64,000 nt of DNA from Naegleria gruberi (taxonomy: Eukaryota). Both the position numbers and the translations under genes were made by a program. The notes beneath the pieces were generated by a model. It saw nothing but the letters and a program-made list of their open reading frames with translations, did no database searches and was not told the DNA's origin. Positions 5,455 to 57,129 of the stretch are shown here, piece after piece (position 1 is the stretch's first letter; every line of letters begins with the position of its first letter). The stretch lies in NCBI GenBank assembly GCA_000004985.1, contig GG738868.1; one strand, written 5' to 3'.

Positions 5455-5528
5455 TGCCTCCCTTGGGAATCGAACCCAAGACCTCTGTCTTACTAGGACA
5501 GCGCTACTGCCAACTGAGCTAGGAAGGC
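5455..5528 (-). tRNA. tRNA-Thr (anticodon AGU)
   Basis: The reverse complement folds as a cloverleaf: acceptor GCCTTCC/GGGAGGC with one G-U pair, anticodon stem CTGTC/GACAG, loop CTAGTAA with anticodon AGT, T-arm TTGGG-TTCGATT-CCCAA, discriminator A. A TTTT run follows about 5 nt downstream. Confidence 0.85.
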
Positions 5529-5576: not shown

Positions 5577-7157
5577 TTAATTTTTATTAAGAAAAGTATT
5601 TTCCCATTCTTTCATTGGAATATAACCTCTCGTTGATTTTTCTCTCATAACAGATAAATATTGTACAGGAAACTCAGCACAAGCTATTAAATGTTTTGGA
5701 AGATACAATTGCCCACCATATTCATGTTCCATTCTGATTTGATACAATTCTTGAAAGTAATGGTTATTTTGAGCATATCCATTTTGCTTGACCGCTTCAA
5801 TTCTCATTTCTAAAGTTGGTGAATTAACATATCTTAGAGCTAGACCATTTTGTTTGACAGCTATTATACAAAGTTCTGGATCAGATCTCACCGAATAATT
5901 AAAATACTGAATACTGGTTCCATTCTGTTTGAGCATTTTCTTAATAAAATCTCTATCTTTTCTAATTGGATTCTGACTTGGAATAAACTCTATAAAACTC
6001 TTATTCGCATGTCTAGACGCCATTTCAATCATATCAGGATCATTTCTTAAATCCGTACAAGCAAATTCATATATTATACAAGAGCTCTCCAAAGCTTTCA
6101 TCAATAATTTCTTATTGTTAAGAACTAAACTCTGAATTGTTGCAAGCCTATTGTAAAACACAAAGCAAGGCCAGGAATCTTGCTTGTAATACTTACTAGC
6201 AGCTTCAAGTGCTTCAATATTCATATCATGATTGGACTGAAATTCCTTGGAGGCATGGCACACTTCTAAGGCACATCTATTGATTGCTTTGCTCACTAAT
6301 TCTCTATCATTTTTGAATTCTTCTGAAACATATTTCAAGAAGTTAATCCCATCTGGATGACATGGTTGAATTAAATCGAGTAGCTCCATCACCATTTGTT
6401 TGTTGTTTCTTATTCTTTCAGAAACATGGATTAAACTTGGTAATTTGATCATGGAAGCACGGACAATCTCAATATCGTCTTTAAATTGTTTTGGAAAATA
6501 ATGCAAACAATCAAAATTTGAAACCAGTAACAGAGCACACTTCTTACTATACAGTACACTATCGGGAAGCCAATTAAACTGAATTTCCTTCCTCATATCA
6601 ATGGCTTGTTTGATAATTTCCACACTTTCATCTTCATTCTTTCCATTAAAGTCTTGAAATTCTAAACGACCTCTGTGAAAGAGTTTCAGAGCATCCTTAT
6701 TCAAAGCAACATCGTAATCTGTCAAATTATTCTCTAATGCAGCCTTGCAAATCATATAATTCTCGCGAATTCTCTTGGAACCATATGCAAGTGCTTTTCC
6801 ATCAAATGAAACACTATTAAGCATAAATTCATCATTATCCAATAAACAATCTGTTGAGGAATATAACTGAATAGCCTGTAATAGAGATCTATTGGTAGAA
6901 CTATCTCCATCGCTTGATAAGCTAGTTAATTGCTTCCTTAATATCATTCTATCGTTATGAAACTCTATCGGAATGTGAAATTCACTCATTTCTCGATAAT
7001 CTGTACAAAAAGCCTGTGTAAGAACTTCATCCCTCCGATTATTCCACTTGATAAACATTTTTCTCTGCTGTGAAAACTTGTTTAAAAGTAACCGATTAAG
7101 GGTTTCGTTTTTATGAGTCGTTTGTGTGAAATCGACTAGTAGAAGACAAACAGTCAT
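5577..7157 (-). CDS. DUF4116 repeat-containing protein
   Basis: 526-aa ORF with recurring ~35-aa units of the form (V/A)VKQNG.AL.Y...L..D.E.V..A, e.g. IIAVKQNGLALRYVNSPTLEMRIEAVKQNGYAQ. This is typical of the DUF4116 repeat family. Confidence 0.6.
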   Translation of the reverse strand: MTVCLLLVDFTQTTHKNETLNRLLLNKFSQQRKMFIKWNNRRDEVLTQAFCTDYREMSEFHIPIEFHNDRMILRKQLTSLSSDGDSSTNRSLLQAIQLYSSTDCLLDNDEFMLNSVSFDGKALAYGSKRIRENYMICKAALENNLTDYDVALNKDALKLFHRGRLEFQDFNGKNEDESVEIIKQAIDMRKEIQFNWLPDSVLYSKKCALLLVSNFDCLHYFPKQFKDDIEIVRASMIKLPSLIHVSERIRNNKQMVMELLDLIQPCHPDGINFLKYVSEEFKNDRELVSKAINRCALEVCHASKEFQSNHDMNIEALEAASKYYKQDSWPCFVFYNRLATIQSLVLNNKKLLMKALESSCIIYEFACTDLRNDPDMIEMASRHANKSFIEFIPSQNPIRKDRDFIKKMLKQNGTSIQYFNYSVRSDPELCIIAVKQNGLALRYVNSPTLEMRIEAVKQNGYAQNNHYFQELYQIRMEHEYGGQLYLPKHLIACAEFPVQYLSVMREKSTRGYIPMKEWENTFLNKN

Positions 7158-7214: not shown

Positions 7215-7219
7215 AAAAA
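7215..7219 (-). terminator. Pol III oligo-T terminator following the 5S rRNA gene
   Basis: TTTTT on the minus strand directly after the 3' end of the 5S sequence (GCTGTAGTC-TTTTT). Confidence 0.45.
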
Positions 7220-7337
7220 GACTACAGCACCACAGGTTCCCAAGTTGTCTCCAACCTCAGTACTGATGTGGCTCGACGATGCTTAACTTCTCAAATCGGA
7301 CGGGATGAGGTGCATTCATCGTGATATGGCCGTAGCC
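7220..7337 (-). rRNA. 5S ribosomal RNA gene
   Basis: The reverse complement reads GGCTACGGCCATATCACGATGAATGCACCTCATCCCGTCCGATTTGAGAAGTTAAGCATCGTCGAGCCACATCAGTACTGAGGTTGGAGACAACTTGGGAACCTGTGGTGCTGTAGTC, about 118 nt. It contains the conserved 5S blocks CGGCCATA, CATCCCGTCCGAT, GAAGTTAAGC, AGTACT and GGGAA...GGTGCTGTAG. The 5' and 3' ends pair to form helix I. Confidence 0.8.
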
Positions 7338-7427: not shown

Positions 7428-10329
7428 TTATTCATCATCTTCATAGTCATCATCTTCATAATCACCTTCCTCATCATCCTCATCGTGATTAATACTGTGT
7501 TTGAAAGCAGCTTCTTCCTCCAATTTCTTTACCTTCATTTCAATAGCTCTTTGCTCCAAAACACAATCTGAGAAAATTTCGGCAATCTCTGCCAAGACTT
7601 CAAAATCCACTTTTTGTAACTCTTTTGCTGCACCTTCTAACTCATCACAGCTGAATGCTCCACTCGATACAAGTCTTCTGACATATTGTAACAAACTCTC
7701 TTTCAAAGAAATGTCTGCTATAAAATCGGCCATTGAATAAATATCAATAATGTACTGAGTAATGGTTTCTTGATTAATCTCAAAGGAAGGATTAATGTCA
7801 GTAGTGTCGCAAGTTGGAAAAGCAGATTTACATAAGATTACATTTTCAAAATCCACATCGTTAGTGTATGCAAAGTATACTAAGGCTGCTACAGAAATTA
7901 ATGGATGGGCTTGGTCTTGCAAATAAAATATCATTGAGACATCTGAAATATCAATCACATTACTTTCATCCACAACCATATTGTTGAACAAGTTGTTAAA
8001 ATATTCATAACGAATACAAAGGAGTGCCTTTGGTACTGTAATTTTCCAAGTTTTGTCTTCAAATGTCAAAGATAAAGTAGCGTTAGTGTTGATTTGTGAA
8101 TATTGAAGAGAGCTATCCATAAGCATGGAGAAATTAGTGTACATGTATTCTCTTGCCAATCTTACTCTCTTAGTTTCATAGCTATCGATCTGAGAAGTGC
8201 AACAGAGCTTGAAAAAGGAAATTTCTTCTTCTGAGAACCCTTTTTGACTGAGGAAGATATCAATATGTTTCTCTCGTGTTTCGTTGATTGTTGGGAGTAC
8301 ATTAAAGGATAAATAATTAGCAGTTAAAATTGCCAAATCTTTCAAGATAGCATCATTTGAAAGTTTAAGCTTGTCCCAAATAATCTTGAAAAGAGAAATA
8401 CCCTTCCTGATATCAATTGATATATATAATAACTTTCTTAAATAATCAATCATTTCTTGAATGCCAATAGAACAGACAGCTGAATATATCTCTATAAAGT
8501 CTTTAAAAATTGGCGTGTCTTTTTCATGATATGGAAGACTGACATCATTTGGGGTTAACTCAATACCATAGCAATACCTTAGTAAACACTTCAATGTCAA
8601 TGTAGTAAAGTGTGTAGTGTCAAGCTTTTTCTCAAACAATTCTCTAAAATATTGAATATGGGATAGCATGAATTTGTGGCATAGGAATCTGTCACCATCA
8701 GTTGATACTAGGGTATAATCTGAATAATTGTTTTCTTTAAGTAACTTCATGGACAATTCCTCAAACACAGCATCAGTAGAAGCACTTTTAGTTGGATCAA
8801 TAAGTAGAGAAGGGTCGTTTTGATAATCAAAGTGAGTCAAATCAAAAGTAAGAAGGGAAGAATCATAATCAGAATAACCAGTTTTGCCAGTTTTACCTCC
8901 AAAGCTAAGAAATTTCTTAGATAATGTTGTAGGATAAGAAGAAATCATTGGTCTGGAAAATGTGGTCATACTATCTCCATAATCATAGAATAAGCAGTTA
9001 GATTTAAAGTTAATATCATTATAACCAATACATAATCCAATATTTCCTCCTCTGTAAATTATTTCATCGTCGGTCAGTATTTTCTTTTTTAATTTTCTCT
9101 CCTTGCCTAGAGTAATTCTCTTCAAAGAAGATTTTTCATTCTCTTCTTCTCTCTGAATATCAAGCATTGAAAGTGAATCATCAACTAGTTTACAATTTTT
9201 CCAAATTTCTTCCTCAATGTTATATATTTGAGTATCTTTAAATCTATTTATGTCGTTTCTTCCACCATGAAGAATTAGGTATTCATATTGTGATTCAAAG
9301 TTATGATTGAACTTCATAGTCTTTGAAATAAACTTTGGTTTTCCATAAGATTGAAATGATGATAATCCAGCTGCAAATCTAGCATCTGGGAAAGAGTAGT
9401 TACAATCAACACTGAACCAAGTCTTACAATTAAAGTCAAAATATTCCAACAAGTTAAGTGAAGAGCTACTCGCATAGTAATGGTCATTACTTGTTCTTCC
9501 ACCAAAAATAAAGAACTTATTCAAGACCATTGCAGAACAAAGTACATGCCTGGAACTTGGTTTCTTACCTGCCAACACCTCGACATCCTTCCAAAGCAAA
9601 TCTCTAAAATCAAATTCAATAAAATCATCGAATTCAAAAAGTGATCCCTCACCCCCAAACACTACAAATCCCGATTGATCTGATTTCAATTCCATAGCAT
9701 GAGCATATCTTTTACAATCACCAATAGGAACAACTGTCTCAAAAACACTTTGATAATGGACTTTCCTCTCGTGTGGATAAGGGTAACCAGTTAGATTTCC
9801 AGTTGCTTGCCTCCAGTTAGTTAATCCTGTGTCACCAAGATGTGTTTTCCACTTGAATGTATTCAAATCCAATTTAAAAACGCCAATATCTAGAAATTGA
9901 TATCCCATATTGCTCTAAATGAATCATTCAGAAATGCAAAATGAAAAATAAACTCACCACATTACCACCAAAGAAATAGATTGCATGATCAGCTCTTCTA
10001 TAAACACATTTCATTCCCCATGCCTGACGAATTGCTGAATTATTAACAGAGTGTTGTTGCCAAACACCTGTTCTCAAATCTAATTCAAATACTTCAAGAT
10101 CTCCACTCACAACATGTTCTTCAACAACACCACCCATACAGAAGAGTGAATGTCTCGGAGGACAAGCCACAAGAGCAATTTGAGATCTTTGTGAAGGAAC
10201 TTTGCCTCGTTGTTGTTCCGCTGTAAATTTTCGATAGGGAATAAATGGATCGGAGCAAATATCATTCATGAAGCGAGACGAAGTGGTCGAACCAACACTA
10301 ACACTCTCGCTTTGATAATTTGATGACAT
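7428..10329 (-). CDS. BTB/POZ + Kelch-repeat protein; 2 exons 9958..10329 and 7428..9914
   Basis: The upstream exon encodes Kelch-like blades (FFGGNV, hydrophobic-GG motifs). It is joined to the large exon by a 43-nt intron 9915..9957 (GTGAGT...TTTAG) in phase 0. The large exon holds more Kelch/galactose-oxidase-type blades, a BTB domain (DGDRFLCHKFMLSHIQYFRELF) and an acidic tail (DEDDEEGDYEDDDYEDDE). Confidence 0.75.
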
Positions 10330-13557: not shown

Positions 13558-14538
13558 ATGTTTCAACCACCAACTCTCGATGAATGCCAACAAGCTCTCG
13601 AATTTACTTCCCTCTCCGATCATGAAAAAACATGTAAATGTTATCAATCACAATATTTTGATCAATTGACAGAACAATTGTGGGGAAATTGGTTGAATCA
13701 ACACAAGGAAAGTGGGCAAACTTTTAGAAATTTCATGGATAAACATCAGGATGATGATTTATATTGTAAACAGGAGGAAAGACGAGTGGTTTATATTTAC
13801 CTGTTGGATAATGTATTGATGGATGGACAGGTTGACACAACAGCTCAGGAAATTCAATTCAAAGACAGAATTGGAAATCATCCATGTTTGAAAAAGGTGA
13901 TTGAGTTTCTGAGAGCTTTTTATTGGGGAGTTACTGTGAAAGCCATGCAACCATCCGAGAAGCAACTTTCTGATTATAGAAATCAATTCAAATTTACGAA
14001 TAGAATAACTTCGTTTGGGAAGAAACAGTTTCTAACAAGTGATATTATCAATTTTCTAAAACAAGTGAAACCTAAAGACTGTTATTGCATGTTGGCATTA
14101 ACAAGTTTTGATTTGTATCCAAAGGAAGATTGGAATTATGTCTTTGGAATTGCAAATATGACCCATCAAGTTGGAGTTATTTCTCATTCGAGATTTGATC
14201 CAAACTTTATGAACAAGTTTTATCCGATTCTTTCAGAAAAGGAGAAGGAAGAATTGATTTTGAAGAGAAGTTGCAAATTGGCTGCCCATGAGATTGGCCA
14301 TTTGTTCAAGTTCAAGCATTGCATTTATTATGATTGTCTAATGAATGGATACAATAGCTTAGAGGAGGTGGATGGGACTTTTATTGATATATGTCCGATA
14401 GAGATTAGAAAGTTGAAAGAGTCAATTGGATTTGATGAGCAGGAGAGATTTGGAAAGATGAGAGAATTTTTCAAAGGCAATGAGGAGTGTTTTGGGAAAG
14501 AATTGGAGTTTGTGGAAAAGATATTGAGTAAACCTTAA
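13558..14538 (+). CDS. Archaemetzincin-like zinc metallopeptidase (peptidase family M54)
   Basis: 326-aa ORF from an ATG after an A-run. It contains HEIGHLFKFKHCIYYDCLMNG followed by a downstream Cys pair (DICPIE). This matches the archaemetzincin HExxHxxGx3Cx4CxM...C motif, with K in place of the G. Confidence 0.75.
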   Translation: MFQPPTLDECQQALEFTSLSDHEKTCKCYQSQYFDQLTEQLWGNWLNQHKESGQTFRNFMDKHQDDDLYCKQEERRVVYIYLLDNVLMDGQVDTTAQEIQFKDRIGNHPCLKKVIEFLRAFYWGVTVKAMQPSEKQLSDYRNQFKFTNRITSFGKKQFLTSDIINFLKQVKPKDCYCMLALTSFDLYPKEDWNYVFGIANMTHQVGVISHSRFDPNFMNKFYPILSEKEKEELILKRSCKLAAHEIGHLFKFKHCIYYDCLMNGYNSLEEVDGTFIDICPIEIRKLKESIGFDEQERFGKMREFFKGNEECFGKELEFVEKILSKP

Positions 14539-14588: not shown

Positions 14589-14659
14589 TCAGGTGTGGTA
14601 TAGTGGTAGCATTCCAGACTGTCACTCTGGCGACCCGGGTTCAATTCCCGGCACTCGAG
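14589..14659 (+). tRNA. tRNA-Asp (anticodon GUC) candidate, possibly degenerate
   Basis: TCAGGTG-TG-GTAT-AGTGGTA-GCAT-T-CCAGA-CTGTCAC-TCTGG-CGAC-CCGGG-TTCAATT-CCCGG-CACTCGA-G. The anticodon loop is identical to eukaryotic tRNA-Asp and the T-arm is canonical. A TTTT run lies ~10 nt downstream. One A-C mismatch occurs in the acceptor stem and one in the D stem, which lowers confidence that the gene is functional. Confidence 0.55.
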
Positions 14660-15831
14660 AAGTAATAGTTTTATATTTTAATCATTTCTCAATAATTTTT
14701 TGCACTTTCTTGTGGTATGGTTTTGTATCTTCATTTGATTTCATTTTTATTTTTCAAAAATATTTTGTAATTCCTTTTTTGGAAGCCTCAGAAGAACCAT
14801 CATTTTTTTCACATCCCCTGTACTTTAATTTTCCAAACATTCTCAACCCAAAATCAATTCATCTCTCCACAAACTATTCTCCACCTTCACTTTCACCGAA
14901 ATATCAATTCTACCATTCATCCTTTATCTCGCTCAATTTTAATACAACCAATCAAGCATACTTCAATATTTTGTAAAAATAGCAAAAAAACGCCATACGC
15001 TCGAGTTATTACTTGTTCTTTCCCGCCAAAATCTCAGTTAGTATTTGTGGTAAGTGAGAGGACAACTCATTCTTGGTTTTGGTGTCACTCATCTCTATGA
15101 GATCTTGCAAACTGGAATGCAATCACTCTGTAGATGCAACGATATCTACAGAAATTTTACATTTTCCTCAACAAAATCTTGATAAACTTAGAGATAAATC
15201 TTTAGCCTATACTTTAATGCACTTTCTTCAAGTGTTTATTACAGTTTGTTGTCATGTAACAATATTTGGAATAGAGCACGAATCTTGATTGAGTCACTAA
15301 GTTTTCCTTCTTTACAAAAACCAAGCATATCAAAAAATCCCTGCCTAAATTGTTCCTAATTTTTGCTCTTCAACATTTGATTGGATCTTCAAAAAGAGAC
15401 TGGACGAATTGAATAGAGACACACTCATTACCGACTTTTGATGCTATCAATACACTTGTCTCAAAACTATTTCACATCTTCTATATACTTCATACAAAAC
15501 TTATTCGAAACATATTGTTAAAACTAATCAACATTATCCTTCTCGTTGTATGGAATCTGATACTCCCAATTGATGAACCTGTATTGTCAATTGACTGCTC
15601 CACTACATCGAAATAGTAAAGAGTTATTCTTTCAACATCCAAAATGTCACCCAAACCGCTAATTCAAATGACTTTCTTCTTCGCATCAGTGATTCGACAT
15701 GCTCGTGTCACCAATCCCCCATCATTTCACAACTAGTAATGTGTTCTCTCTGCTGAGCAATATTTAAAATGTCACTCGAGCCAACTGCCAATCAAATCAT
15801 CCACATAAAAAAATTCACAATTTATAACAAG

Positions 15832-17064
15832 ATGAATAAGACCCTCTTGTTCGCATTAGCCATGCTTTTCTGCATGGTTGCTTTCGTTTCTGCTGGTCCA
15901 TCTGCCAGTGCTGAAACTCTCGCTGCCACCACATTGTGCAACACTTTAGGAAATAAAACTAAAGGATGTGTCAAGTCATCTAGAAAACTCTTGAAAAGAG
16001 TTCCAAAGAATAAGAGAAGACAAGTTAAGAGATTGTTAAAGAAGGCCAGAAAGAATGCTCGTAAAGCAAAGAAACAACAAAGAAAGCTCAGAAAATTGAG
16101 AAGATGTGCCAAGAAGGCTAAATCTTTGAAGAAGAGAAGACAATGTAGAAGAGCATTGAAGAAGGTTGTTAAGAAGATCAAGAAGGCTAGACGTGCTGCT
16201 AGAAGAGCTGCCAAGAAGGCTGCTAAGAAGGCTAGAAAGGCCAGAAGATCTGCTAGACGTGCTGCTAGAAGAAAGGCCAGAAAAGCTTTGAAGAAGGCTA
16301 AGAAATCCTTGAAGAAGAGAAGAGCTTTGAAGAGAGCTGTCAGAAAGGGTAGAAAGTTCGGAAGAAAGGTCAGAAAGGTCAGAAAGTGTAAGAGATCTTC
16401 CTCAAGAAAGACCAGACGTGCTGCCAAGAGAAGAGTCAAGAAGGCAGTTAAGAAGGCTTTGAGAAAGTTGAAGAAACAATTGAAGAAGGCTAGAAAGGTT
16501 GCTAAGAAGGCTGCCAAGAAGGCTAGAAAGGCTAGAAGATTGAGAAGAAGACCAGCTAGAAAATGTAGACGTGTCTCAAAGAAGTCCATTAAGAGAGCTG
16601 TTAAGAGAGTTGTCAAGAGAGCTGTTAAGAAGGCTACTTTGAAGCTCAGAAAGCAATTGAAGAAGGCTAAGAAGCAAGTCAAGAAGGCTAGAAAGGTTGC
16701 CAAGAAGGCTGTTAAGAAGGCCAGAAAGGTTGTCAAGAAGGTCAAGAAGACTTGTAGAAGAAAGGTCAAGAAGGCTGCCAAGAAGATTGCTAAGAGAAGA
16801 TCTGCTGCCAAGAAGGTCGTCTTGAAGAAGGCTGCTGCTAAAAAGTTGAACAAGGTTGTTAACAAGTTGTTGAAATTGAAGAAGAAGCTCGGTAAGAGAT
16901 TCAACCCAAAGAAACACATCCCAAAGAAGGTTAGAAAGGTCTTGAGAAAATTGAGAATTTCTGCCAAGTGTGTCAAGAAGGTCAAGAAGGCTGCCAAGAA
17001 GGTTAAGGTCTCAAAGGCTTTGTTGAACAAGTTGAGAAAGGTTTCTTCCAAGTGTAGAAAGTAA
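15832..17064 (+). CDS. Secreted polycationic K/R/A-rich repeat protein (signal peptide + ~380 aa of lysine/arginine/alanine-rich low complexity with ~10 spaced Cys)
   Basis: ATG at 15832 begins MNKTLLFALAMLFCMVAFVSAGPSASA, a classical signal peptide. The rest is almost entirely KKA(R/K)K, RRA and KKV-type units with periodic Cys. Codon usage differs sharply from neighbouring genes: Lys is AAG, Arg is AGA, Ala is GCT, Leu is TTG and Val is GTC/GTT, and GC is higher. The antisense ORF 15822..17090 is a complement artifact. Confidence 0.7.
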   Translation: MNKTLLFALAMLFCMVAFVSAGPSASAETLAATTLCNTLGNKTKGCVKSSRKLLKRVPKNKRRQVKRLLKKARKNARKAKKQQRKLRKLRRCAKKAKSLKKRRQCRRALKKVVKKIKKARRAARRAAKKAAKKARKARRSARRAARRKARKALKKAKKSLKKRRALKRAVRKGRKFGRKVRKVRKCKRSSSRKTRRAAKRRVKKAVKKALRKLKKQLKKARKVAKKAAKKARKARRLRRRPARKCRRVSKKSIKRAVKRVVKRAVKKATLKLRKQLKKAKKQVKKARKVAKKAVKKARKVVKKVKKTCRRKVKKAAKKIAKRRSAAKKVVLKKAAAKKLNKVVNKLLKLKKKLGKRFNPKKHIPKKVRKVLRKLRISAKCVKKVKKAAKKVKVSKALLNKLRKVSSKCRK

Positions 17065-17295
17065 ATCAATTTCATTTGAATTTGAATCATTAAATTATTA
17101 AATACATATTTGGAAATTCAATTATTAATTTACCCATAAATTTGTTATTGTATTGCGTTTTGAAAAAAGCATGTAGATCAACAAAACTGATATGTATTGT
17201 AATATTATTTTAAATTGATTGGAAAAATTGTAAACTTTCAAAAAACGAAAAATTTGGTAATTCAAGATTAATTTTTTTTGAATTTGATAAAAAAA

Positions 17296-18447
17296 ATGCT
17301 CAACAATACTTTGGATAATAATTTTTCAATTAATCAGAATTCTGGTGATAATAATGATGGAAAAAAGAGAAAATTACAAATTGCCTTTGATGATGAATTA
17401 ATTAATCAACACGTTTCGGAGCAGATGAGTAAGAAGAGAATTCAGAATGATGAATTTGATTCGGAATTAATTCCTTTTTATCTGCAAGATGTATTTCTGG
17501 AAAATGTATTCCCGTTCATGAATGGAAGAGATTTGAATCGGATTCGATTGGTATGCAATAGTTGGTTTAATTTTCAGAAGGGAGATTATTTTGTATCGAA
17601 TCATGTGGCTCGTTTGAAATTAGAACATGATGTATTGAATATTTCAAAGAAAAAGACTCAATTATCTATTGTGAGAATGCATTTGGGATACAAGCAAGGG
17701 AAAATGTTGATTATTCATATAGAAAAGAATGATTCTCTTTCAGAGGATTTAATTGATGAACATGTATTGGATCCTGCTTGTACCAAACAAATAGATGATA
17801 CAATCATTTCAAAATTTGATTTTACAAAAATTAAATCAATTGTTGGATGGAAGGATGGAAAGAAACATGGAGAAGTTATTGATTATTTCAAAACTGGAGA
17901 AATTATGCAAATTGGACATTTTGAGAATGGAAAAAAGCATGGAGATTTTATCAAGTATTTCAACTCTCCTCATGTTGTGGAGAGGACATGTTCCTATAAG
18001 AATGACAAGTTGTGTGGTAAATTGGACGAATACAAGATAGTTCGCGATTTACAAAATCAAAAATTAGTGTTGAAAGATGTAGAATGTTCGTACGAGAATG
18101 GAAAGTATCATGGCGAGAAGATTGTCTATGATAAAGATGGAAAGATTACAGAAATTACCAATCACAAGAATGGAAAATTACATGGTGTTTCCAAATATTT
18201 CGAGGTTGGAAGAGGTTATTTGAAATTGGAAGTAAATTATCAAGATGGAAAATTACATGGCACCCACAAATCATTCTTTGCTAATGGAACACCATTTGAA
18301 ACCAAAGAATATGAAAATGGAAAGTTAATTTCTCAAACAATTGGCTCAACAGGGCGAAGAACTAGTCAAGGATTAGAATCTTCTGATGAAGATCAGGATG
18401 AGGAAATCATCAATTCAGACAATGACAACGAAGAAGATATTGAATAA
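17296..18447 (+). CDS. F-box-like + MORN-repeat protein with acidic C-terminus
   Basis: An N-terminal F-box-like motif (IPFYLQDVFLENVFPFMNGRDLNRIRLVCNSW) is present. At least 7 MORN-type repeats follow (G.KHGEVIDYFKTGEIMQIGHFENGKKHGDFIKYF ...). The C-terminus is acidic (SSDEDQDEEIINSDNDNEEDIE). Confidence 0.7.
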   Translation: MLNNTLDNNFSINQNSGDNNDGKKRKLQIAFDDELINQHVSEQMSKKRIQNDEFDSELIPFYLQDVFLENVFPFMNGRDLNRIRLVCNSWFNFQKGDYFVSNHVARLKLEHDVLNISKKKTQLSIVRMHLGYKQGKMLIIHIEKNDSLSEDLIDEHVLDPACTKQIDDTIISKFDFTKIKSIVGWKDGKKHGEVIDYFKTGEIMQIGHFENGKKHGDFIKYFNSPHVVERTCSYKNDKLCGKLDEYKIVRDLQNQKLVLKDVECSYENGKYHGEKIVYDKDGKITEITNHKNGKLHGVSKYFEVGRGYLKLEVNYQDGKLHGTHKSFFANGTPFETKEYENGKLISQTIGSTGRRTSQGLESSDEDQDEEIINSDNDNEEDIE

Positions 18448-29526: not shown

Positions 29527-29613
29527 TCCGATGAGACGGAATCGAACCGCCGACCACAGGATGACAGTTTTTCTTGCTACAGTCCCATGCTCTACCAGCT
29601 GAGCTATCATCGG
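29527..29613 (-). tRNA. tRNA-Tyr (anticodon GUA) with a 14-nt intron
   Basis: The reverse complement reads CCGATGA-TA-GCTC-AGCTGGTAGA-GAGC-A-TGGGA-CTGTAG-[CAAGAAAAACTGTC]-A-TCCTG-TGGTC-GGCGG-TTCGATT-CCGTC-TCATCGG-A. The intron lies after position 37, as in other eukaryotic tRNA-Tyr genes. The acceptor and T stems are fully paired, and a T-run follows downstream. Confidence 0.85.
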
Positions 29614-34103: not shown

Positions 34104-37100
34104 TTAAATGCCAATTTTTAAGGACTTGCCAAGATTATTTTGTGAAAAATCAAAAACTTGTGAAAAGAATTCATATTCACTAGTCAATACAAATCTTGAA
34201 AAGGTATCAGAAAGATTCATAATGACATTATCTCTCAAATTCAAAAAACATTCATCAGCTTGTTCTTTCATTGGATTATTCTGCTTTAAATCAACCATTT
34301 CACTCTCTTGATTATTAGAAACTTGAAGCAGTTTCTTAAACTCTTTCGAACAAGAAGATGGAATATTAACTTCCATTTCAGAACCATTCTTGATATAGGT
34401 ATTGTAAATTCTTTCAATGAAATTGTTGATATCGTTTGCATTATTCGAATCCAATTTCTCCTTCTCTTGCAAATCCAAAAACAAGTACAAATTTTCAACA
34501 CTAAATTCCTTCCTGCAAAAAGCTTCAAATATTTCTCTTCCATATGAGTTTCCAATCAATTCCAACATTTCTCTATTTTCTTCTTGATCAGAAACCAGAG
34601 TTTCTGGAACTTTTCTCAATTTGAACCTAATCTTATTCGAAATGATAATCAATAGAGAATATCCACCAAACACCAGAATATAAACAGCCACATAGACCAC
34701 TTCAAATATGAATGCAATCACATCATTGGTCAGAACATTTCTATAACTCTGTTCATTATCATATCTGAAAGGAAGTGTACTCATTCCCAATGATTGATTT
34801 ACAATCAACAAGATGAAAAACACAATGTACAATAACATTTCACCTCTGAAATAGAGTGGTGTATCCATTGAGATGAGCCATTTGTGAATTCCCATTGAGG
34901 AAATTTTTTCCTTAACGATTTGTAAATCAACTTTTGTCTTTTTTGTTTCTTCTATTGATTTCTTATTGGACGAATGTTGCTTAATCATGGAATAAATGAA
35001 ATCCACAACTGCAGTGCCTGAAATGACAAGACTCAATGCAAATATGATAATAATATATGAAATGGAAATGATATAGGTATAGGCAGTAAGTGAAATGACA
35101 TCACATCTTCTTAAAATAACCCACAATGTCCAATAAAGTAAATTCAAAATGACAAATGTCAACAGAATGGAATTAACAACCTTTTTAGATGTGAATCTTT
35201 TAAGGTTTTTCAATAAACTTGATTGTGAAATATTGGATTGACTCTTTCTTAGTTGATGGAGAATATTGTAAAGATATTTCATTAATTGGAATCTCAATAC
35301 TTGAATGAGGTATGCAAGAATTGCTGTTAAATTCAAAGTATTTACAAAAATCATTACAATATTTGCAATCCAATTAGCAGCAAGATCACCACTTGACCAA
35401 TTCGTTGAATCTTTAAATAATTGATCAACTAGAACACTTCTCTGAATAATATAGATCAATAAACTTTCCACCATTAAGGCAATCATTCCCAAATAAGGAG
35501 TTGATAATCTAGAAATCAAAGGTTGACTTTTTCTAAATATTATCATTAAAATCAACACAGTGATTGAAATGATAAAGTAGAAAATACCCAAAGAAATTTG
35601 CCCATAATAAAGAGAAGCAACTTGACGTTTCGTATTATCACTTAGTGGAATAGTCTTTTGTTCGAGGAAGGTTGTAAAGAGTGTTGTGTGATTGCAAGCA
35701 CATTGAACAATTCTAGTTTCTAAATTGAAAGAATAGAGATAACATCCCTCATCACTCCAGGTTCCTGAACTTTCTTCCAAATAAGTACATGTGAAATTGT
35801 AATTGGAAGAATTTTGTAATTTTTCAAGAATGTTTTGATCCGTCAATTTGAATTCAATGATAATTGGATTGGCAAGATTCTCCAATTTTACCACTTTTTG
35901 ATTCTTTAAAAATTTGAAATCTGTTGTAATTGAAATTCCTTCACTTGTTCCATTATTATTCGAATAAGAATTGTTGAAAAGATTCGAATAGGTTAATAAA
36001 GAAACAGCACATTCACTGGAATAGGCAACATTTTGTGAAATGATATAAGAAGCATTAAAGGAAACACTTGTTTGATCTTGTTCCACTTTTTGGTTGACCA
36101 ATTGAGTGGAAGCACTTGAAATTACAAAAGCTGAAATTGTCATGTTAATATTCGATGAGGAATATGAGCTAACCACCAAACTACCATCATTAGTATCCAC
36201 ATACGTGACCAATTGACCAAGAATAATAAGATCAGCCAAATTCTGAGCTAATTCTCTTGAATTTGACAGTAAAAGTTCAGCACCAAGAAATTGAGAAGCA
36301 TACGAAAGGATTGAATTGACATTGCTGTTGGAAATCTTTGAATTAACATATCCATAGCTTGATTTACTTGTATTGTAACGGTTATACGAGTAGGATACAA
36401 GTTCTGATAATTTCGATAATGTAGTATTAGCAATAGTTTCGTCCAATTGAGTTTTTGAAATAATTTCTGAAAGACTTGACAAGGCAGATGAAGGATCACT
36501 TCCGCTAACATCTATATTACTCAATAAAGAAGCATAATACGTTGTAGATGAAGAGAATGACACGTCATAAATCAATGAAGTAATCAAATTGAAGTTTGTT
36601 CCAGAATTTGAAGAAATTTTTGAATATTCTTCCATGGTTCCATTGAAAAAAGCGACAAGTATGGATAATGATGAAGATTTGGAGTAATAATTGCCCAAAC
36701 TATCCATTACAATGATTCCCAATGAAATAGTTTCGCCAACATTCGGTAAAACAATTGACCGATTCAAATCCTGTGAAAAATCAGTAATTCTAATGGAACT
36801 TAGTTTTGAACTTGAGAATGTAATGGCATATTTCAATGGAAGTAACATTGAATCTGCACTCCATGGATTAATATTCAAGTTTACAATTTCCTTAATTGCT
36901 GAACATTTGGTTGAATTTGAATTCAATAAATTGTTTGGTGATTTTGGAGGAATTCTGAATTGTAATTCGAAAGAGGAATATAAACTAACACTGTCTATTT
37001 GTAGAGAAGCAGTTGCAGTGGATGAAAATCCAAATGTTAATGATGTGAAATTCACTGAAATTTGATTGGAAATTGAAATTGTTGGGAAAAGTGTTAAAAT

Positions 37101-40100
37101 TCCACTTTGAGTATTTTGAATTGAAATTCCAGTAAATGTTTTTGCTGAATTGGAGATTTGAACAGTAAAAGTTACTACTGAGCTAGTGAGTTTCAAAGAA
37201 TCAATAATTGTTTGGTCAACTGAAAGTTTAGAAATAATCAAATCAAAATTAACAAGATCACTTTTCGCAATATAGTAAGAAGGAAGTCCTAGAATCGAAA
37301 AAGGTCTTTCACAAATTGAAGAATATGCATTACAATAGGGTGTGAGCTTTCGAATAACACTATTTTCAGTATCAGCAAAATATAGCTCACCACTTGGTCC
37401 AATAGAAACAGTTCCTGGAGCATTCAATGAAGCAAGTGAAGCTAATCCATTATCTCCTTTGTATCCATTCGAAAGAGTTCCTGCAATTGTATAAATTGTA
37501 CCGTTTGTCAACACTTTACGAATTCTATTGGTTTCGGATATATAAATTTCTCCTCCTGAACTAATCGAAACTCCCACAGGAAGACTCAATTTAGCTGTAG
37601 TAGCTAAACCATTATCTCCACCATAACCATTTGTTCCAGTTCCAGCAATTGTAGTTATAGTTCCATTTGTGAAAACCTTTCGAATACGATTATTGGAATA
37701 GTCTGCAATAATTAATTCACCATTTGAACTCACAGCTACATCCTTAGGATTATTCAACTGTGCACTAGTTGCCTGACCTCCATCTCCTGCATATCCACCA
37801 ATTCCATTTCCAGCAATTGTAATTATCGTTCCATTTGTGAAAATCTTTCGAATTCTATGATTACCTGTGTCAGCAATGTAAATTTCTCCACTATTCGAAA
37901 TATCAAATAAAGTTGATACTAAAAAAGCGTTGCTAGCATTCAATCCATCTCCTATTCCTCCAGCAATGGTAGAAACCATTCCAGTAGTTGCCAAAATTTT
38001 ACGAATCTTCCAAGAAGAAGTTGTTTCACAAACTATCAAATTTTCACTCGAATCAAAAGTCAAACCAACAGGGTAAGCAAAATTAGTAATTGATTCATGT
38101 AAACCATCGCCGTTATATTCACTTCGACCTGTTCCTGCTATATTGGAAATTATACCAGTAACGCTAGATATAACTCGAATACGATGATTGTAATTATCTG
38201 AAATGTAAATATCACCTGTTGAACTAATTGCAATTCCGGCTGGATAAGATAATTGTGCATTGGATGCTTTCCCACCATCTCCTCCATAGGTACAAGTACC
38301 TGCTTTACCAGATATGGTAGTAATGGTACCATTCGAATAAATTTTACGAATCACACAATATACTATATCGGTAAAATAAACATTTCCTGAATTGAATAAA
38401 ACTGAAGAAGGATAACCAATGGTTGCATTGGAACCCAATCCATTGTCACCACTAAATCCATTCGTTCCAGTTCCAGCAATTGTTACGATGGTTCCATTTG
38501 TGAAAATCTTTCGAATACGATAATTACCAGCATCTGCAATGTAAATTTCATTATTTGCACCAATGGAAACATCAACAGGACTATAAAGTGATGCATTTGC
38601 GGCATCTATTCCATCTCCATTGTAAATAGTGTTTCCATTTCCTGCAATGGTTGTAATTATTCCATTATTCGAAACTTTACGAATTCTATGATTACCATAA
38701 TCAGCAATGTATAATTCTCCACTAGAAGAAATGGCAATTCCATTTGGTCTATTCAAGCATGTATTCACAGCAAGTCCTCCATCTCCACAAAATCCTGCAG
38801 TACCATTACCAGCAATAGTTGTAATTATTCCATTATTAGAAACCTTTCGAATACGATGATTATTCATATCACTAATAATTAGTTCACCATTCGTAGAATT
38901 AATAACACAATGTGATGGATAGTTCATAATAGCACTGGTTGCTGGAATATTATCTCCATTGTAAAAGATAGCTCCTGCCAATTTAACAGCAGGTCCATAA
39001 TTTAGATTAACAATTCTATCAATATACGAAACACTATTGGAAGTGTACATGACGTACATGTCATTATTAAAGAATTTGATTGAATTTGGATTGGAATAGG
39101 TCTGTATAATCGTTGTGTATCCAACAGTTCCAGCAAGTGTTGTAATCAAATTGGAAGTTAAATTAATTTGTCTGAATTGACCACTGCTGTCAGCAAATGA
39201 CAATTGATTGTTATTTAAAGACATTGAGCCAATTGGAGAAATGAATGCTGGAATTGCTGGGACATTATTTCCAAAACTACTGGTTCCTCCTGCAATCGTT
39301 GTAATTTTTCCACTGGACGAAACCTTTCTAATTCTATTGTTATTACTATCGGCAATATAAAATTCATTATTTGACGAATCAATTGCAATTCCAACAGGAT
39401 TATTAAGGGTTGCAATGGTTGCATCAATACCGTCATAATTATAACCAGATTGTCCATCACCTGCAATACTTGAAATTATCCCACTAGTAGCCGAAACCTT
39501 TCTAATTCTTTGGTAACTATCAGAAAAGTATAAATCATTACTTTTAGTCAGTGCAACAGATAATGGAAATCGAATAGGTGCATTATTAGCTAGGCTTCCA
39601 TCTGGACTGTTTGCAGCCTCTCCAGTTCCTACAATAGTTACAATAGTTCCACTTGAATAAACCTTTCGAATACGATTATTCACTAAATCTGCAAAAACAA
39701 TATTACCATCCGAGTCAATAGCCACACCAAAAGGTGTATTCAACATGGCATTCACAGCTGGTCCTCCATCTCCTGAATATCCACCTGTTCCATTTCCTGC
39801 AATAGTTGTAATCATTCCATTATTCGAAATCTTTCGAATACGATTATTGAGAGTATCAGCAATAAATACTTCACCACCAGAAGAAACAGCAATACCAATA
39901 GGATAACCCAACTGAGCACTTGTAGCAGGGATATTATCTCCATTGTAATTTGGCTCACCATTTCCTGCAATGGTTGTGATGGTACCATTCGAATAAATTT
40001 TACGAATTCGATGATTTGCATAATCAGCAAAATATACTTCACCACTTGTTGGATGGAAAGCAACACCATGTGGACTATTTACTGTGGCTTTGGTAGCATC

Positions 40101-55321: not shown

Positions 55322-57129
55322 TTAGAGTTGACCATTTTCCCACTTGTCTTCAATCAAGCTCTTAACAATGGACCAACCACGGTGACCAATGATTGGATTT
55401 TCCATTTCACTGAATTCATCAGCCAACTTGTTGGCAGCAAGACCAGTTGGAATATTTTGATCTCTAGAAGTTTGCAAAATACGGGAAGCAATAACATAGA
55501 CAGCATTGTCCCAATCTCTACCGAAGTGTTTCAAAATTGCTGGGTCGTTCTTGACATAACCAAAGCATTCATTGGCACAATTGACAATACCCATACGGTT
55601 GTTCAAGTAATCTGGAACATAAATGATACCACGATTCTTAATCATGTGATCATGTTCAACAGGATCCAAAAGTTGATTGTTGGCAGCACCACAGACAATC
55701 TTACAGTTGAGCATTGGAATGGTAGTAGAGTTGATGATACCACCCAAAGCAGCTGGAGCAAAAACGTCACATGGTTCAGCAAAGATGCTCAAATCGTTTG
55801 GAGCAACAACTCTGAATTCAACATTTGGTGCATGCTTGAATTGTTCCTTTCTCATGGCAATCAAGTTCTTGTCGATATCAGTAGCAATAACCTTACCAAC
55901 ATTTCTCTTGACGAGTTCTTCAACAATGAAGCTAGCAACATTACCAGCACCTTGGACGACAACCTTCTTTCCACTCAAATCTCCCATACCGAGGAAATTA
56001 ACAGCAGCTTCCATACCACAGACAGTACCAATGGCAGTGGAGTGAGATGGGTTACCAGAACCACCAATACCTTGTGACAAACAACTGACGAAACGAGAAG
56101 ACTTTGATGAAGAAGAAATTATGATAAGTGTGTGAAAATTGATGATGATGAAATTGTAACGGTAACAAAAATATTTCACATTTGCATTTTGATTGGAAGT
56201 TGAAGGTGTTAATAATAAAGAGAGATAATATACATACATTGTGCATTCTATCACAATCTGGTGTAGTGAGACCAACGTCTTCAGCACCATAGTAGGCACC
56301 CTTCAATGAAGAAAGGAACTTTCCGTATTCACCAAAGATGACATCACGAGTAACATCATTAGCATAAGTAGCACCATCAGTCTTTTGGATGATACCCTTA
56401 CCACCACCTGTTGATTATTGATCCATCAAGTTTTAATAATTATTTTCCAATATTTGTTGTTCATATGATGATAGAATCGATTGTGTGTGAAAATATCGTG
56501 TGTGATTTTTAAAATTATATGAATTGTAAATATCATCAATAATAAATACTAACCCCACCATAAACCAGCAAGAGCATTCTTTCTATTAATTAAATTCAAC
56601 AAGTCCGATATCATCACAAGGAATTAAATTTCACAATCATCATCAATATTATGAAAATTAATTTCATATAAAATCACACAACATACCTAGTCATACCCAA
56701 GCTCAATCTCAAACCATCTCTAACGTAATCTTCCATAGAATTGTACTTCCACAATCTGACACCACCGTGTGCCAAACCTCTGTTTGATTTATGGAGGAAA
56801 GCAGAGAACAAGAGGTTAGACTTTGGACCAACTTGGAAGAAACAAGCTTCATGCTTCAAGAAATCTCTCTTATCCTTTGAAATAAATTCACCCAATTGAG
56901 CAAAAAGTGGATGACTAGTCACAACTTGTTGCTTTTCAGCATCATAAACAACATAACCTCTTTGAATGCCAGCCTTTTGCATTTCTTCTTGGAATTTTTC
57001 AACAGACAAGGATGCAACTCCATTTTGTTGTTGATTCAATTTTTGGGAGAATTGTCTGACGATCATTCCGGCTTGGAAAGTTGTTTGCTTATTACCAGCA
57101 ACAACACGACGGCTCACAGTGTTGAACAT
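55322..57129 (-). CDS. Leu/Phe/Val-type amino-acid dehydrogenase (ELFV dehydrogenase family, leucine-dehydrogenase-like) with N-terminal presequence; 4 exons 56687..57129, 56554..56582, 56238..56407, 55322..56101
   Basis: The spliced product aligns along its whole length with bacterial LeuDH: GLAHGGVRLWKY, RLSLGMT|RKNALAGLWWG|GGGKGII, YYGAEDVGLT, GGSGNPSHSTA, VVQGAGNVA, ATDID, DVFAPAALGGIIN, GAANNQL and YVPDYLNNRMGIVNCANE. The introns run 56583..56686 (GTATGT..AATAG), 56408..56553 (GTTAGT..AACAG) and 56102..56237 (GTATGT..CAAAG), and phases 2/0/0 check. The N-terminal ~55 aa is basic and hydroxylated, like a presequence. The exon-4 acceptor choice is the least certain element. Confidence 0.65.

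What the first reader, a model, noticed from the sequence alone, without database searches (positions are those of the whole stretch)
15832..17064. Secreted ~410-aa polycationic protein (about 40% Lys plus Arg and Ala, spaced Cys) with codon usage unlike its neighbours
The product starts with a textbook signal peptide and is then almost pure K/R/A repeat (KKARK, RRAAKKAAKKARKARR, KKVKK...) with about 10 regularly spaced cysteines. At the DNA level Lys is nearly always AAG, Arg AGA, Ala GCT, Leu TTG and Val GTC/GTT, whereas surrounding genes use AAA/AAT-rich codons. This points to a very highly expressed gene or to compositional selection. Candidate roles are a secreted nucleic-acid- or polyanion-binding protein, an antimicrobial or cell-penetrating polycation, or a wall/cyst matrix protein; all of these are inference. 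Its antisense strand gives a 422-aa F/L-rich pseudo-ORF that could be mis-annotated as a membrane protein.
Basis: partly seen in the sequence, partly recalled or inferred. Interest (0 to 1): 0.7.

Follow-up and report, generated by a model that had tools for sequence, protein, structure and literature searches.

The report
Unannotated secreted polycationic helix protein, Naegleria
This is a real but apparently unannotated Naegleria gruberi gene for a secreted 45-kDa protein that is almost one long, extremely positively charged (net about +195) amphipathic helix; it belongs to a tiny uncharacterised family found so far only in Naegleria and Willaertia, and its function is still unknown.

Summary
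Window 15832-17064(+) is an intronless 410-codon ORF in Naegleria gruberi. It encodes a signal peptide, a short neutral spacer, about 290 aa with 55% Lys+Arg and no acidic residue, and a 75-aa C-terminal module.

It is coding rather than a simple repeat:
- Only this sense frame is open.
- All repeat spacings are multiples of 3.
- The C-terminal module is conserved far beyond composition (z = 12.6-15.6) in two secreted proteins. These are N. gruberi XP_002671385 and Willaertia magna ABK040_008784, which add VWD/GDPH domains that the window protein lacks.

Hydrophobic residues recur every 3.7 residues, the pattern of an amphipathic helix. All three proteins show a period of 3.45-3.7.

Codon bias is the strongest of 27 window genes (ENC 30.4). 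It persists without Lys/Arg/Ala codons and matches the window's other strongly biased gene. This fits translational selection, but expression was not measured.

Searches found no matching annotated N. gruberi protein, and trypsin would leave only one peptide of 7 aa or more.

Function is inferred only. My best guess is an abundant secreted polycation that binds polyanionic surfaces, such as bacterial prey envelopes or wall/matrix polymers. The antisense 422-aa ORF is a compositional artefact.

The parts
15832..17064 (+). Complete intronless CDS, 410 codons plus TAA. The precursor is a secreted polycationic protein. The mature form is 389 aa, 45.1 kDa, with calculated pI 12.0 (at the top of the calculator's range) and net charge +195.
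15832..15894 (+). Signal peptide, aa 1-21 (MNKTLLFALAMLFCMVAFVSA). Predicted cleavage is after Ala21 (Val at -3, Ala at -1). The start MNK(T/S) is shared with the Willaertia homologue.
15895..15969 (+). Near-neutral spacer, aa 22-46. It holds the only acidic residue (Glu28), Cys36 and Cys46, and the sequon N41-K-T. It separates the signal peptide from the basic body.
15970..16836 (+). Polycationic amphipathic-helix body, aa 47-335. K+R is 55% and there are no acidic residues. Basic residues never run more than 4 in a row. Hydrophobic residues recur every 3.70 residues. The DNA is a degenerate repeat with periods of 12, 21 and 33 nt. Cys92, 105, 186 and 245 sit at or next to predicted helix breaks; Cys308 lies within a helix.
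16837..17061 (+). Conserved C-terminal module, aa 336-410 (…LLKLKKKLGKRFNPKKHIPKK…KC…KC..). It is shared with N. gruberi XP_002671385 and W. magna ABK040_008784 and includes two cysteines (Cys380 and Cys408).
15769..15831 (+). In-frame upstream extension of 21 codons from an earlier ATG. It is probably 5' UTR: it contains ATA AAA AAA, is absent from the homologue, and would bury the signal peptide.
15822..17090 (-). Antisense 422-aa F/L-rich ORF. It is a compositional artefact and not part of the gene.

Best explanation
Window 15832-17064(+) is a genuine, intronless and apparently unannotated Naegleria gruberi gene.

Shown:
- It encodes a cleavable-type signal peptide, a short neutral spacer, about 290 residues of polycationic sequence patterned as an amphipathic alpha-helix, and a 75-aa Cys-containing C-terminal module.
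- The module defines a small family also seen in N. gruberi XP_002671385 and Willaertia magna ABK040_008784. The window protein is a member that lacks the VWD domains of those two.
- Its synonymous codons are the preferred set.

Inferred:
- The gene is highly expressed.
- The protein enters the ER and is released into a lumen or outside the cell. It stays largely unfolded because of charge repulsion until it meets a polyanionic surface.
- It then binds electrostatically and folds into long helices. The narrow Ala/Val/Leu stripe lies in the interface and Lys/Arg point outward.
- The odd number of cysteines (9) and the C-terminal module link molecules into disulfide-bonded multimers.

My preferred target is the anionic envelope or membrane of bacterial prey, in phagosomes or the medium, with carpet-like coating, aggregation or permeabilisation. 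That sub-claim is the weakest step (about 0.3). General extracellular or luminal binding of polyanions is about 0.6. The gene and family identity is about 0.9.
For: Organism:
- The neighbouring ORF 13558-14538 is identical to N. gruberi XP_002677081.

Coding:
- The sense frame has no internal stop, against 25 and 41 in the other sense frames.
- Repeat spacings are all multiples of 3.
- The C-terminal 75 aa align to the C-termini of P0001 and P0005 with z = 15.6 and 12.6 against 2000 composition-preserving shuffles. The best match is at the C-terminus in each protein (alignment).

Secretory route:
- The hydrophobic N-terminus obeys the -3/-1 rule, and no other hydrophobic segment exists.
- Both homologues have signal peptides.
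- The Pfam VWD match of P0001 scores 32.9 bits against a cut-off of 22.9. The VWD regions of P0005 are 46% identical to it. In both proteins the VWD lies on the same chain as the polycationic region.

Amphipathic helix:
- The periodicity peak is at 3.70 residues with power 4.0-4.35, above the highest shuffle value (2.6-3.1).
- P0001 and P0005 give significant peaks at 3.45-3.65.
- Mean hydrophobic moment over 18-residue windows is 0.59, against 0.28 +/- 0.02 when shuffled.
- The AlphaFold single-sequence model is almost all helix, with mean pLDDT 73.6.

Codon selection:
- The log-likelihood ratio for the biased-gene model over the background model is +0.405 bits per codon. All 25 background genes are negative (highest -0.11).
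- It stays at +0.30 without Lys codons, +0.42 without K/R/A codons, and +0.60 in the C-terminal module.
- ENC is 30.4, the lowest in the window.
- There are 0/36 GTA/GTG and 0/68 AGG/CGA/CGG/CGC codons, against 41% and 27% in the background.
- The Willaertia homologue is also enriched in AAG and TTC relative to its neighbours.

Not annotated:
- The exact sequence is absent from the collection.
- No N. gruberi protein covering it was found, either in the word-based search or in the exhaustive phmmer search of 1.84 billion representatives.
Against: - No transcript, proteomic or localisation data could be reached.
- SignalP could not be run.
- Mean hydrophobicity (-0.72) is far below that of known helical antimicrobial peptides (-0.39 to +0.30). 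Membrane insertion may therefore be weak, and plain polyanion binding is equally compatible.
- The VWD domains in the relatives point at least as much to a multimerising matrix or adhesive role as to killing prey.
- Only three family members are known, so conservation statistics rest on few sequences.
- The N-terminal 55 codons show little codon bias (LLR -0.08).
- The codon reference is one biased gene in the window, not a ribosomal-protein set.
Confidence: 0.55

Rival explanations
1. It is a structural or adhesive polyelectrolyte. The protein is secreted into the cyst wall, ostiole plug, glycocalyx or substrate-adhesion layer. There it neutralises and cross-links acidic polysaccharides or glycoproteins, or sticks cells to negatively charged surfaces like a natural polylysine. 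Disulfides between cysteines give a network.
For: - Both relatives carry VWD/GDPH domains. From general knowledge, these are typical of multimerising extracellular matrix, mucin or adhesive proteins.
- The mature protein has nine cysteines, an odd number, and most sit at or next to predicted helix breaks.
- The C-terminal two-Cys module is conserved.
- Hydrophobicity is very low for a membrane-active peptide.
Against: - No polysaccharide-binding or lectin domain was found.
- The heparin-binding consensus XBBXBX is not enriched: 3 observed against 6.0 +/- 2.3 in shuffles.
- From general knowledge, strong codon optimisation is more usual for genes expressed during rapid growth than for differentiation-specific wall genes. 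This argument is weak.
- There are no expression data.
Confidence: 0.25
2. It is a luminal counter-ion or condensing partner. The protein stays inside a secretory or acidic organelle and packages a polyanion such as polyphosphate, nucleic acid or acidic cargo proteins, in the way that basic proteins and polyanions are co-packaged in secretory granules.
For: - Net charge is +195 with a single acidic residue. Such a chain needs a polyanionic partner to be compact.
- It has a signal peptide but no membrane anchor.
Against: - No retention or sorting signal was recognised.
- No acidic pro-piece or neighbouring acidic partner gene was seen.
- The conserved amphipathic periodicity is not required for simple charge neutralisation.
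Confidence: 0.1
3. The N-terminal hydrophobic segment is not a functional signal peptide, and the product is a cytosolic, nuclear or nucleolar polybasic protein that binds nucleic acid, like linker histones or protamines.
For: - K/A-rich composition resembles linker-histone tails (general knowledge).
- The body would act as a very strong nuclear localisation signal if it were exposed to the cytosol (inference).
Against: - The N-terminus has the signal-peptide layout: a short basic start, a hydrophobic core of about 17 residues, and a Val-Ser-Ala cleavage motif.
- It is followed by about 20 uncharged residues before the basic body.
- Both homologues place the same kind of polycationic region on one chain with extracellular VWD domains.
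- There is no linker-histone globular domain.
- There are only 5 prolines and no SPKK-type motifs.
Confidence: 0.05
4. It is not a gene on this strand. Either the region is a non-coding purine-rich simple repeat with accidental open frames, or the real gene is the antisense 422-aa F/L-rich ORF.
For: - The antisense frame is fully open.
- The DNA is repetitive.
- No matching annotated gene model was found.
Against: - Two of the three sense frames are full of stops, which would not be expected of a neutral repeat.
- The sense-frame protein has a signal peptide.
- The C-terminal module is conserved in two proteins far beyond composition.
- The antisense frame is open simply because the protein has no Tyr and few Gln/His (plus inspection).
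- The antisense frame uses atypical codons, for example AGA 0.14 of Arg codons.
- In Willaertia the antisense of the homologue is open for only 167 codons.
Confidence: 0.02

Closest known systems
N. gruberi NAEGRDRAFT_59485 (XP_002671385, 926 aa, 'predicted protein') and Willaertia magna ABK040_008784 (KAL9654998, 575 aa, 'hypothetical protein')
   Same: - N-terminal signal peptide.
- Long K/R/A/V/L region with helical amphipathic periodicity.
- Homologous C-terminal module of about 75 aa with two cysteines.
   Different: - These proteins carry two and one VWD/GDPH domains respectively; the window protein has none.
- The Willaertia gene has an intron and a second polycationic segment upstream of the VWD domain.
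- No synteny was found with the Willaertia locus.
- Neither relative has any described function.
Alpha-helical cationic antimicrobial peptides such as cecropin, magainin and LL-37 (own knowledge)
   Same: - Made as secretory precursors.
- Lys/Arg-rich amphipathic helix.
- Comparable hydrophobic moment: 18-residue windows have median 0.63 and maximum 0.95, against 0.51-0.89 for the reference peptides.
   Different: - About ten times longer (389 aa mature).
- K+R about 53% against typically 15-30%.
- Mean hydrophobicity -0.72 against -0.39 to +0.30.
- No sequence relationship.
- Processing into peptides and any activity are untested.
Linker histone H1 C-terminal tails and protamines (own knowledge)
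   Same: - Extreme basicity with K/A-rich low complexity.
- Expected to fold only when the charge is neutralised by a polyanion.
   Different: - These are nuclear proteins without a signal peptide.
- H1 has a winged-helix globular domain and Pro-rich S/TPKK motifs.
- The window protein has a signal peptide, no Pfam domain, 5 prolines and a strict helical periodicity.
Polyelectrolyte adhesive or matrix proteins (sandcastle-worm Pc and mussel foot proteins) and the basic C-terminal tail of Giardia cyst wall protein 2 (own knowledge)
   Same: Secreted, strongly basic segments thought to act through electrostatic pairing with polyanions in granules, walls or glues.
   Different: - Those proteins are much less basic.
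- They carry other hallmark features (DOPA/Gly/Tyr-rich sequence, or leucine-rich repeats) that are absent here.
- No acidic partner was identified.
- No homology.
Proteins with 11-residue amphipathic repeats: group 3 LEA proteins, apolipoproteins, alpha-synuclein (own knowledge)
   Same: - Periodicity close to 11/3 = 3.67 residues.
- DNA sub-repeats of 33 nt.
- Predicted long uninterrupted helices.
   Different: - Those proteins are charge-balanced or acidic-basic zwitterionic; this one has a single acidic residue.
- No Pfam LEA or apolipoprotein match.
- The homologues peak at 3.45-3.65, so a strict 11-residue repeat is not conserved.

Membership tests
Heterolobosean signal peptide-(VWD)-polycationic-tail family (XP_002671385 / ABK040_008784; unnamed, defined here) | N-terminal cleavable-type signal peptide | tested here: met
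   Hydropathy and the -3/-1 rule. SignalP was not available.
Heterolobosean signal peptide-(VWD)-polycationic-tail family (XP_002671385 / ABK040_008784; unnamed, defined here) | Long K/R-rich region with alpha-helical amphipathic periodicity | tested here: met
   Peak at 3.70 residues in the window protein and 3.45-3.65 in P0001 and P0005. None of 300 shuffles reached the observed power, except for the short P0001 N-terminal segment, where 2 of 300 did.
Heterolobosean signal peptide-(VWD)-polycationic-tail family (XP_002671385 / ABK040_008784; unnamed, defined here) | Conserved C-terminal module L-[KR]-L-K-[KR]-[KR]-L-G-[KR]-[KR]-[FW]-[ND]-P-K-K … two Cys | tested here: met
   Alignment A1 has 14 invariant columns. 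Smith-Waterman z = 15.6 and 12.6 against shuffles, with the best match at the C-terminus in every protein.
Heterolobosean signal peptide-(VWD)-polycationic-tail family (XP_002671385 / ABK040_008784; unnamed, defined here) | VWD domain with GDPH motif | tested here: not met
   No Pfam hit in the window protein. tblastn with the VWD parts of P0001 and P0005 finds no credible match in the 64-kb window; the only weak hits lie in or next to the unrelated Kelch/BTB gene. The window protein is therefore a VWD-less member.
Linker histone H1/H5 | Winged-helix globular domain (Pfam PF00538) | tested here: not met
   No Pfam family at E <= 0.01.
Linker histone H1/H5 | Nuclear protein without a secretory signal | tested here: not met
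   A signal-peptide-like N-terminus is present. Localisation itself is not testable here.
Alpha-helical cationic antimicrobial peptides | Amphipathic cationic helix with a high hydrophobic moment | tested here: met
   Mean hydrophobic moment over 18-residue windows is 0.59 (shuffled 0.28), and 61% of windows exceed 0.6. This is comparable with the reference peptides.
Alpha-helical cationic antimicrobial peptides | Short mature peptide (about 12-50 aa) of moderate hydrophobicity | tested here: not met
   The encoded mature chain is 389 aa with mean hydrophobicity -0.72. Proteolytic processing into peptides cannot be tested here.
Alpha-helical cationic antimicrobial peptides | Membrane-permeabilising or bactericidal activity | not testable with these tools
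   Needs recombinant protein or peptide assays.
Group 3 LEA proteins (Pfam LEA_4) | Match to the LEA_4 profile, with charge-balanced 11-residue repeats | tested here: not met
   No Pfam hit. There is 1 acidic residue in 410. Only the periodicity of about 11/3 is shared.
Heparin-binding proteins with Cardin-Weintraub consensus | Enrichment of XBBXBX / XBBBXXBX motifs | tested here: not met
   3 and 0 motifs, against 6.0 and 1.5 expected from shuffles. Electrostatic polyanion binding is still expected from the charge alone.
VWD / gel-forming mucin-like proteins | VWD domain | tested here: not met
   Absent from the window protein. Present only in the two relatives.

The most novel reading that the evidence does not exclude
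The gene may found a new class of very large, abundant, secreted polycations: giant carpet-type amphipathic helices, in effect a natural polylysine. Heterolobosean amoebae would use them to coat, aggregate or kill bacterial prey, or to glue themselves to anionic surfaces. The class would have escaped notice because such genes are easily dropped by gene callers and the proteins leave almost no usable tryptic peptides. It would also be a natural case of efficient translation and ER translocation of about 360 residues at 53% Lys/Arg. That is useful for work on polybasic ribosome stalling and translocation.
Probability: 0.25. Interest if true: 0.7.

Novelty: new variant of a known kind. Interest (0 to 1): 0.5.

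Why it matters
If it is expressed as the codon bias suggests, Naegleria makes a large amount of a secreted protein with a net charge near +195. No matching entry was found in the annotated protein collections searched. Only one tryptic peptide of 7 aa or more can be produced, and that peptide carries a glycosylation sequon.

This bears on several questions:
- How bacterivorous and pathogenic amoebae handle anionic surfaces such as prey, host mucus or cells, cyst walls and substrates.
- Annotation practice for low-complexity genes.
- Polybasic stalling and Sec61 translocation, for which it offers a natural extreme substrate.
- Polycationic biomaterials and antimicrobials, for which it offers a template.

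It also shows that the rare protist VWD proteins of Naegleria belong to a family defined by a polycationic tail and a conserved C-terminal module.

Tried and rejected
1. Pfam scan of the protein: no family.
2. PDB sequence search: only designed helical bundles, at E >= 0.014.
3. Foldseek of the AlphaFold model against the PDB: nothing at E <= 0.001.
4. Homologue search with the C-terminal 90 aa and with the three-sequence profile A1: no hits even at E <= 10, probably because of short length and composition correction.
5. Exhaustive phmmer search: one true hit (P0005) and one spurious Ala-rich giant repeat protein (P0004).
6. Metagenome scans and viral-contig scans: no relatives.
7. The N. gruberi genome is not in the positional index, so I obtained no paralogue DNA and no view of the official gene models.
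8. Literature:
   - No paper names the paralogue.
   - It is absent from the held supplements of one N. gruberi proteomics paper.
   - Searches on Naegleria secretome, cyst wall and VWD gave nothing relevant, except that VWD domains were noted in Naegleria (PMC4948705).
9. Poly(A)-track avoidance as the cause of the AAG bias: rejected as sufficient. Lys runs are at most 3 residues, so even background codon usage gives no window of 11 or more A in 12 nt. The bias also persists without Lys codons.
10. Heparin-binding consensus enrichment: rejected.
11. Hidden VWD exon near the gene: rejected.
12. Synteny with the Willaertia locus: none by tblastx.
13. Rfam: no RNA family in the region.
Full report
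**Origin and observation**

The window is Naegleria gruberi. The ORF at 13558-14538 is residue-for-residue identical to XP_002677081/EFC44337. The window has about 34% G+C, densely packed and mostly unspliced ORFs, and eukaryotic domains such as F-box/Ras, MORN, TLDc and PQ-loop.

The reported ORF is real. It runs from ATG 15832 to TAA 17062-17064 and encodes 410 aa.
- Composition is K 31.5%, R 16.6%, A 15.1%, L 8.8% and V 8.8%, with one Glu and no Asp.
- There are ten cysteines, one of them inside the signal peptide. The other nine are spaced 10, 46, 13, 81, 59, 63, 72 and 28 residues apart, which is only loosely regular.

**Coding or simple repeat?**

A purine-rich repeat can be open in several frames, so ORF length alone proves little. 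Five lines of evidence show that the sense frame is coding.
- It has no internal stop, while the two other sense frames have 25 and 41.
- All repeat periods and spacings are multiples of 3. The periods are 9, 12, 21, 33 and 54 nt, apart from three very short low-scoring arrays.
- The product begins with a signal-peptide-like segment.
- The last 75 residues are homologous to the C-termini of two other proteins. Smith-Waterman scores are 188 and 145. Means from 2000 composition-preserving shuffles are 64 and 51 (maxima 100 and 92), giving z = 15.6 and 12.6. The best-matching position is the C-terminus in each protein (alignment A1).
- The Willaertia gene model was built in a study that mapped mRNA reads for its annotation (PMC11702301).

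The antisense 422-aa ORF (15822-17090, minus strand) is open because the protein has no Tyr and few Gln/His. It uses atypical codons. Its counterpart in Willaertia is open for only 167 codons.

The in-frame ATG at 15769 is unlikely to be the start. The 21 extra codons include ATA AAA AAA, they would bury the signal peptide, and the Willaertia protein starts MNKS just as this one starts MNKT.

**Anatomy**
- **Residues 1-21** (MNKTLLFALAMLFCMVAFVSA) are the only strongly hydrophobic segment. The 11-aa Kyte-Doolittle mean reaches 2.65 here and is at most 0.53 after residue 40. Val at -3 and Ala at -1 precede Gly22.
- **Residues 22-46** are nearly neutral. They hold the only acidic residue, Cys36 and Cys46, and the sequon N41-K-T.
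- **Residues 47-335** have 55% K+R and no acidic residue. Basic residues never run more than four in a row.
- **Residues 336-410** form the conserved module (…LLKLKKKLGKRFNPKKHIPKK…KC…KC), with Cys380 and Cys408.
- **The mature protein** is 389 aa and 45.1 kDa, with net charge +195 and a calculated pI of 12.0, the top of the calculator's range.

Hydrophobic residues in the body recur with a period of 3.70 residues. The power is 4.0-4.35, against a highest shuffle value of 2.6-3.1. The mean hydrophobic moment over 18-residue windows is 0.59, against 0.28 +/- 0.02 for shuffled sequence.

A single-sequence AlphaFold model is almost entirely helical, with mean pLDDT 73.6 and pTM 0.30. The long helices span 59-95, 99-186, 193-243 and 250-356. 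The breaks coincide with Cys-containing linkers.

**Relatives**

I found only two true relatives.
- The word-based search gave Willaertia magna ABK040_008784 (P0001, 575 aa).
- An exhaustive phmmer scan of 1.84 billion representatives gave N. gruberi XP_002671385/NAEGRDRAFT_59485 (P0005, 926 aa). It also gave one spurious Ala-rich giant protein.

Both relatives have a signal peptide, VWD domains with the GDPH motif, and a long polycationic region ending in the same C-terminal module.
- P0001 has one VWD domain, with a Pfam score of 32.9 bits against a cut-off of 22.9.
- P0005 has two, each 46% identical to the P0001 domain.
- Their polycationic regions also show helical periodicity, at 3.45-3.65 residues.

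The window protein has no VWD domain, and no credible VWD match lies anywhere in the window. Its tail is closer to the Willaertia tail than to its own paralogue's tail. There is no local synteny with the Willaertia locus.

Because VWD is an extracellular, disulfide-rich domain on the same chain with no membrane span, the polycationic module of this family must be luminal or extracellular. This is an inference.

VWD domains had been noted in Naegleria as a rarity among protists (PMC4948705). No paper names these proteins.

**Codon usage**

The bias is real and is not just a consequence of composition.
- AAG is 0.88 of Lys codons (background 0.42).
- AGA is 0.93 of Arg codons (background 0.61), with CGT as the only other Arg codon.
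- GTT+GTC is 36/36 for Val (background 0.58).
- TTC is 5/5, CCA 5/5 and CAA 7/7.
- ENC is 30.4 at GC3 0.49, the most extreme of 27 window genes.

I used the window's other strongly biased gene as the reference. It is a spliced Glu/Leu/Phe/Val-dehydrogenase-like gene at 55322-57129 on the minus strand.
- The target scores +0.405 bits per codon for the biased-gene model over the background model.
- All 25 background genes are negative, with a maximum of -0.11 and a median of -0.51.
- The value stays positive without Lys codons (+0.30), without K/R/A codons (+0.42), and in the less repetitive C-terminal module (+0.60).
- It is about neutral in the first 55 codons (-0.08).

Simple inheritance of codons through repeat amplification does not explain this. 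Repeat copies differ at synonymous sites (GCT/GCC, GTT/GTC, AGA/CGT). Yet no GTA/GTG occurs in 36 Val codons and no AGG/CGA/CGG/CGC occurs in 68 Arg codons. From the background frequencies (41% and 27%) the binomial chances are roughly 6e-9 and 5e-10.

Avoidance of poly(A) tracks is not sufficient either. Lys runs are at most three residues, so background codon usage would never create a window of 11 or more A in 12 nt. The Willaertia homologue is likewise enriched in AAG and TTC relative to its neighbours.

Translational selection, and hence high expression, is the best reading. Expression itself was not measured.

**Annotation status**

Neither the 410-aa nor the 431-aa product, nor the antisense product, is in the 15-billion-protein collection, which does hold other N. 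gruberi proteins. Neither homology search returned an N. gruberi model overlapping the ORF. I could not inspect the official gene models directly.

Trypsin would leave a single peptide of 7 aa or more, and that peptide carries the N-glycosylation sequon. Standard proteomics would therefore miss the protein.

**Mechanism**

All of this is inference. A chain with net charge +195 cannot compact without counter-ions. Its conserved amphipathic pattern, a narrow Ala/Val/Leu stripe with Lys/Arg elsewhere, predicts folding on contact with a polyanionic interface. Nine cysteines and the conserved two-Cys module suggest disulfide-linked multimers.

I rank the options as follows:
- **About 0.3:** binding, aggregation or carpet-like permeabilisation of bacterial prey envelopes, in phagosomes or the medium. 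This fits a codon-optimised gene in a bacterivore.
- **About 0.25:** wall, matrix or adhesive polyelectrolyte. This fits the VWD relatives and the very low hydrophobicity (-0.72, against -0.39 to +0.30 for known helical antimicrobial peptides).
- **About 0.1:** luminal counter-ion for polyphosphate or other polyanions.

A nuclear or cytosolic role and a non-coding reading are unlikely.

The heparin-binding consensus motif is not enriched, and no lectin or other domain is present.

**Verdict**

The protein works like known secreted cationic amphipathic polypeptides or polyelectrolytes. It is not a member of any described family. It is a VWD-less member of an uncharacterised family found so far only in two heterolobosean genera, and its composition is extreme. 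I rate it a new variant of a known kind, with moderate interest (0.5).

Noticed in passing
window 55322-57129 (-): A spliced gene (at least 3 introns) resembling Glu/Leu/Phe/Val dehydrogenase (Pfam ELFV_dehydrog). It is the only other gene in the window with strong preferred-codon bias (AAG 0.73-0.88 across its two main ORF segments, ENC 32.6). I used it as the in-window reference for optimal codons.
   Followed up: partly
window 7219-7337 (-): A 5S rRNA gene (Rfam 105 bits) lying between protein-coding genes (DUF4116 gene 5577-7157 and Kelch/BTB gene 7428-9908).
   Followed up: no
window 29527-29613 (-): An 87-nt tRNA found by Rfam (54.8 bits) but missed by ARAGORN. It probably contains an intron or has a long variable arm. 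tRNA-Thr(AGT) lies at 5455-5528(-). tRNA-Asp(GTC) lies at 14589-14659(+), about 50 nt after the archaemetzincin stop.
   Followed up: no
window 34104-40442 (-): A 2112-aa ORF combining many NHL/teneurin-type repeats, a GPS (GPCR proteolysis site) motif and a C-terminal RGS domain. The layout resembles an adhesion GPCR with an RGS domain, in a protist.
   Followed up: no
window 14660-15831: A gap of about 1.1 kb without a convincing ORF lies upstream of the target gene, which is long for this compact genome. It may hold the promoter and 5' UTR. The listed ORFs 14593-14976 and 15073-15288 look spurious.
   Followed up: no
L001 6877-9638 (+) and 2842-4236 (-): In Willaertia magna a 899-aa glycosyltransferase family 2 gene lies directly upstream of the homologue, on the same strand, and a MORN-repeat gene lies nearby. 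A MORN gene also follows the target in the window (17296-18447). tblastx found no synteny between the two loci.
   Followed up: partly
window 13558-14538 (+): An archaemetzincin-like (Peptidase_M54) gene identical to XP_002677081. It was the only one of the five sense-strand window ORFs I looked up exactly that is present unchanged in the protein collection, and it identified the organism.
   Followed up: yes
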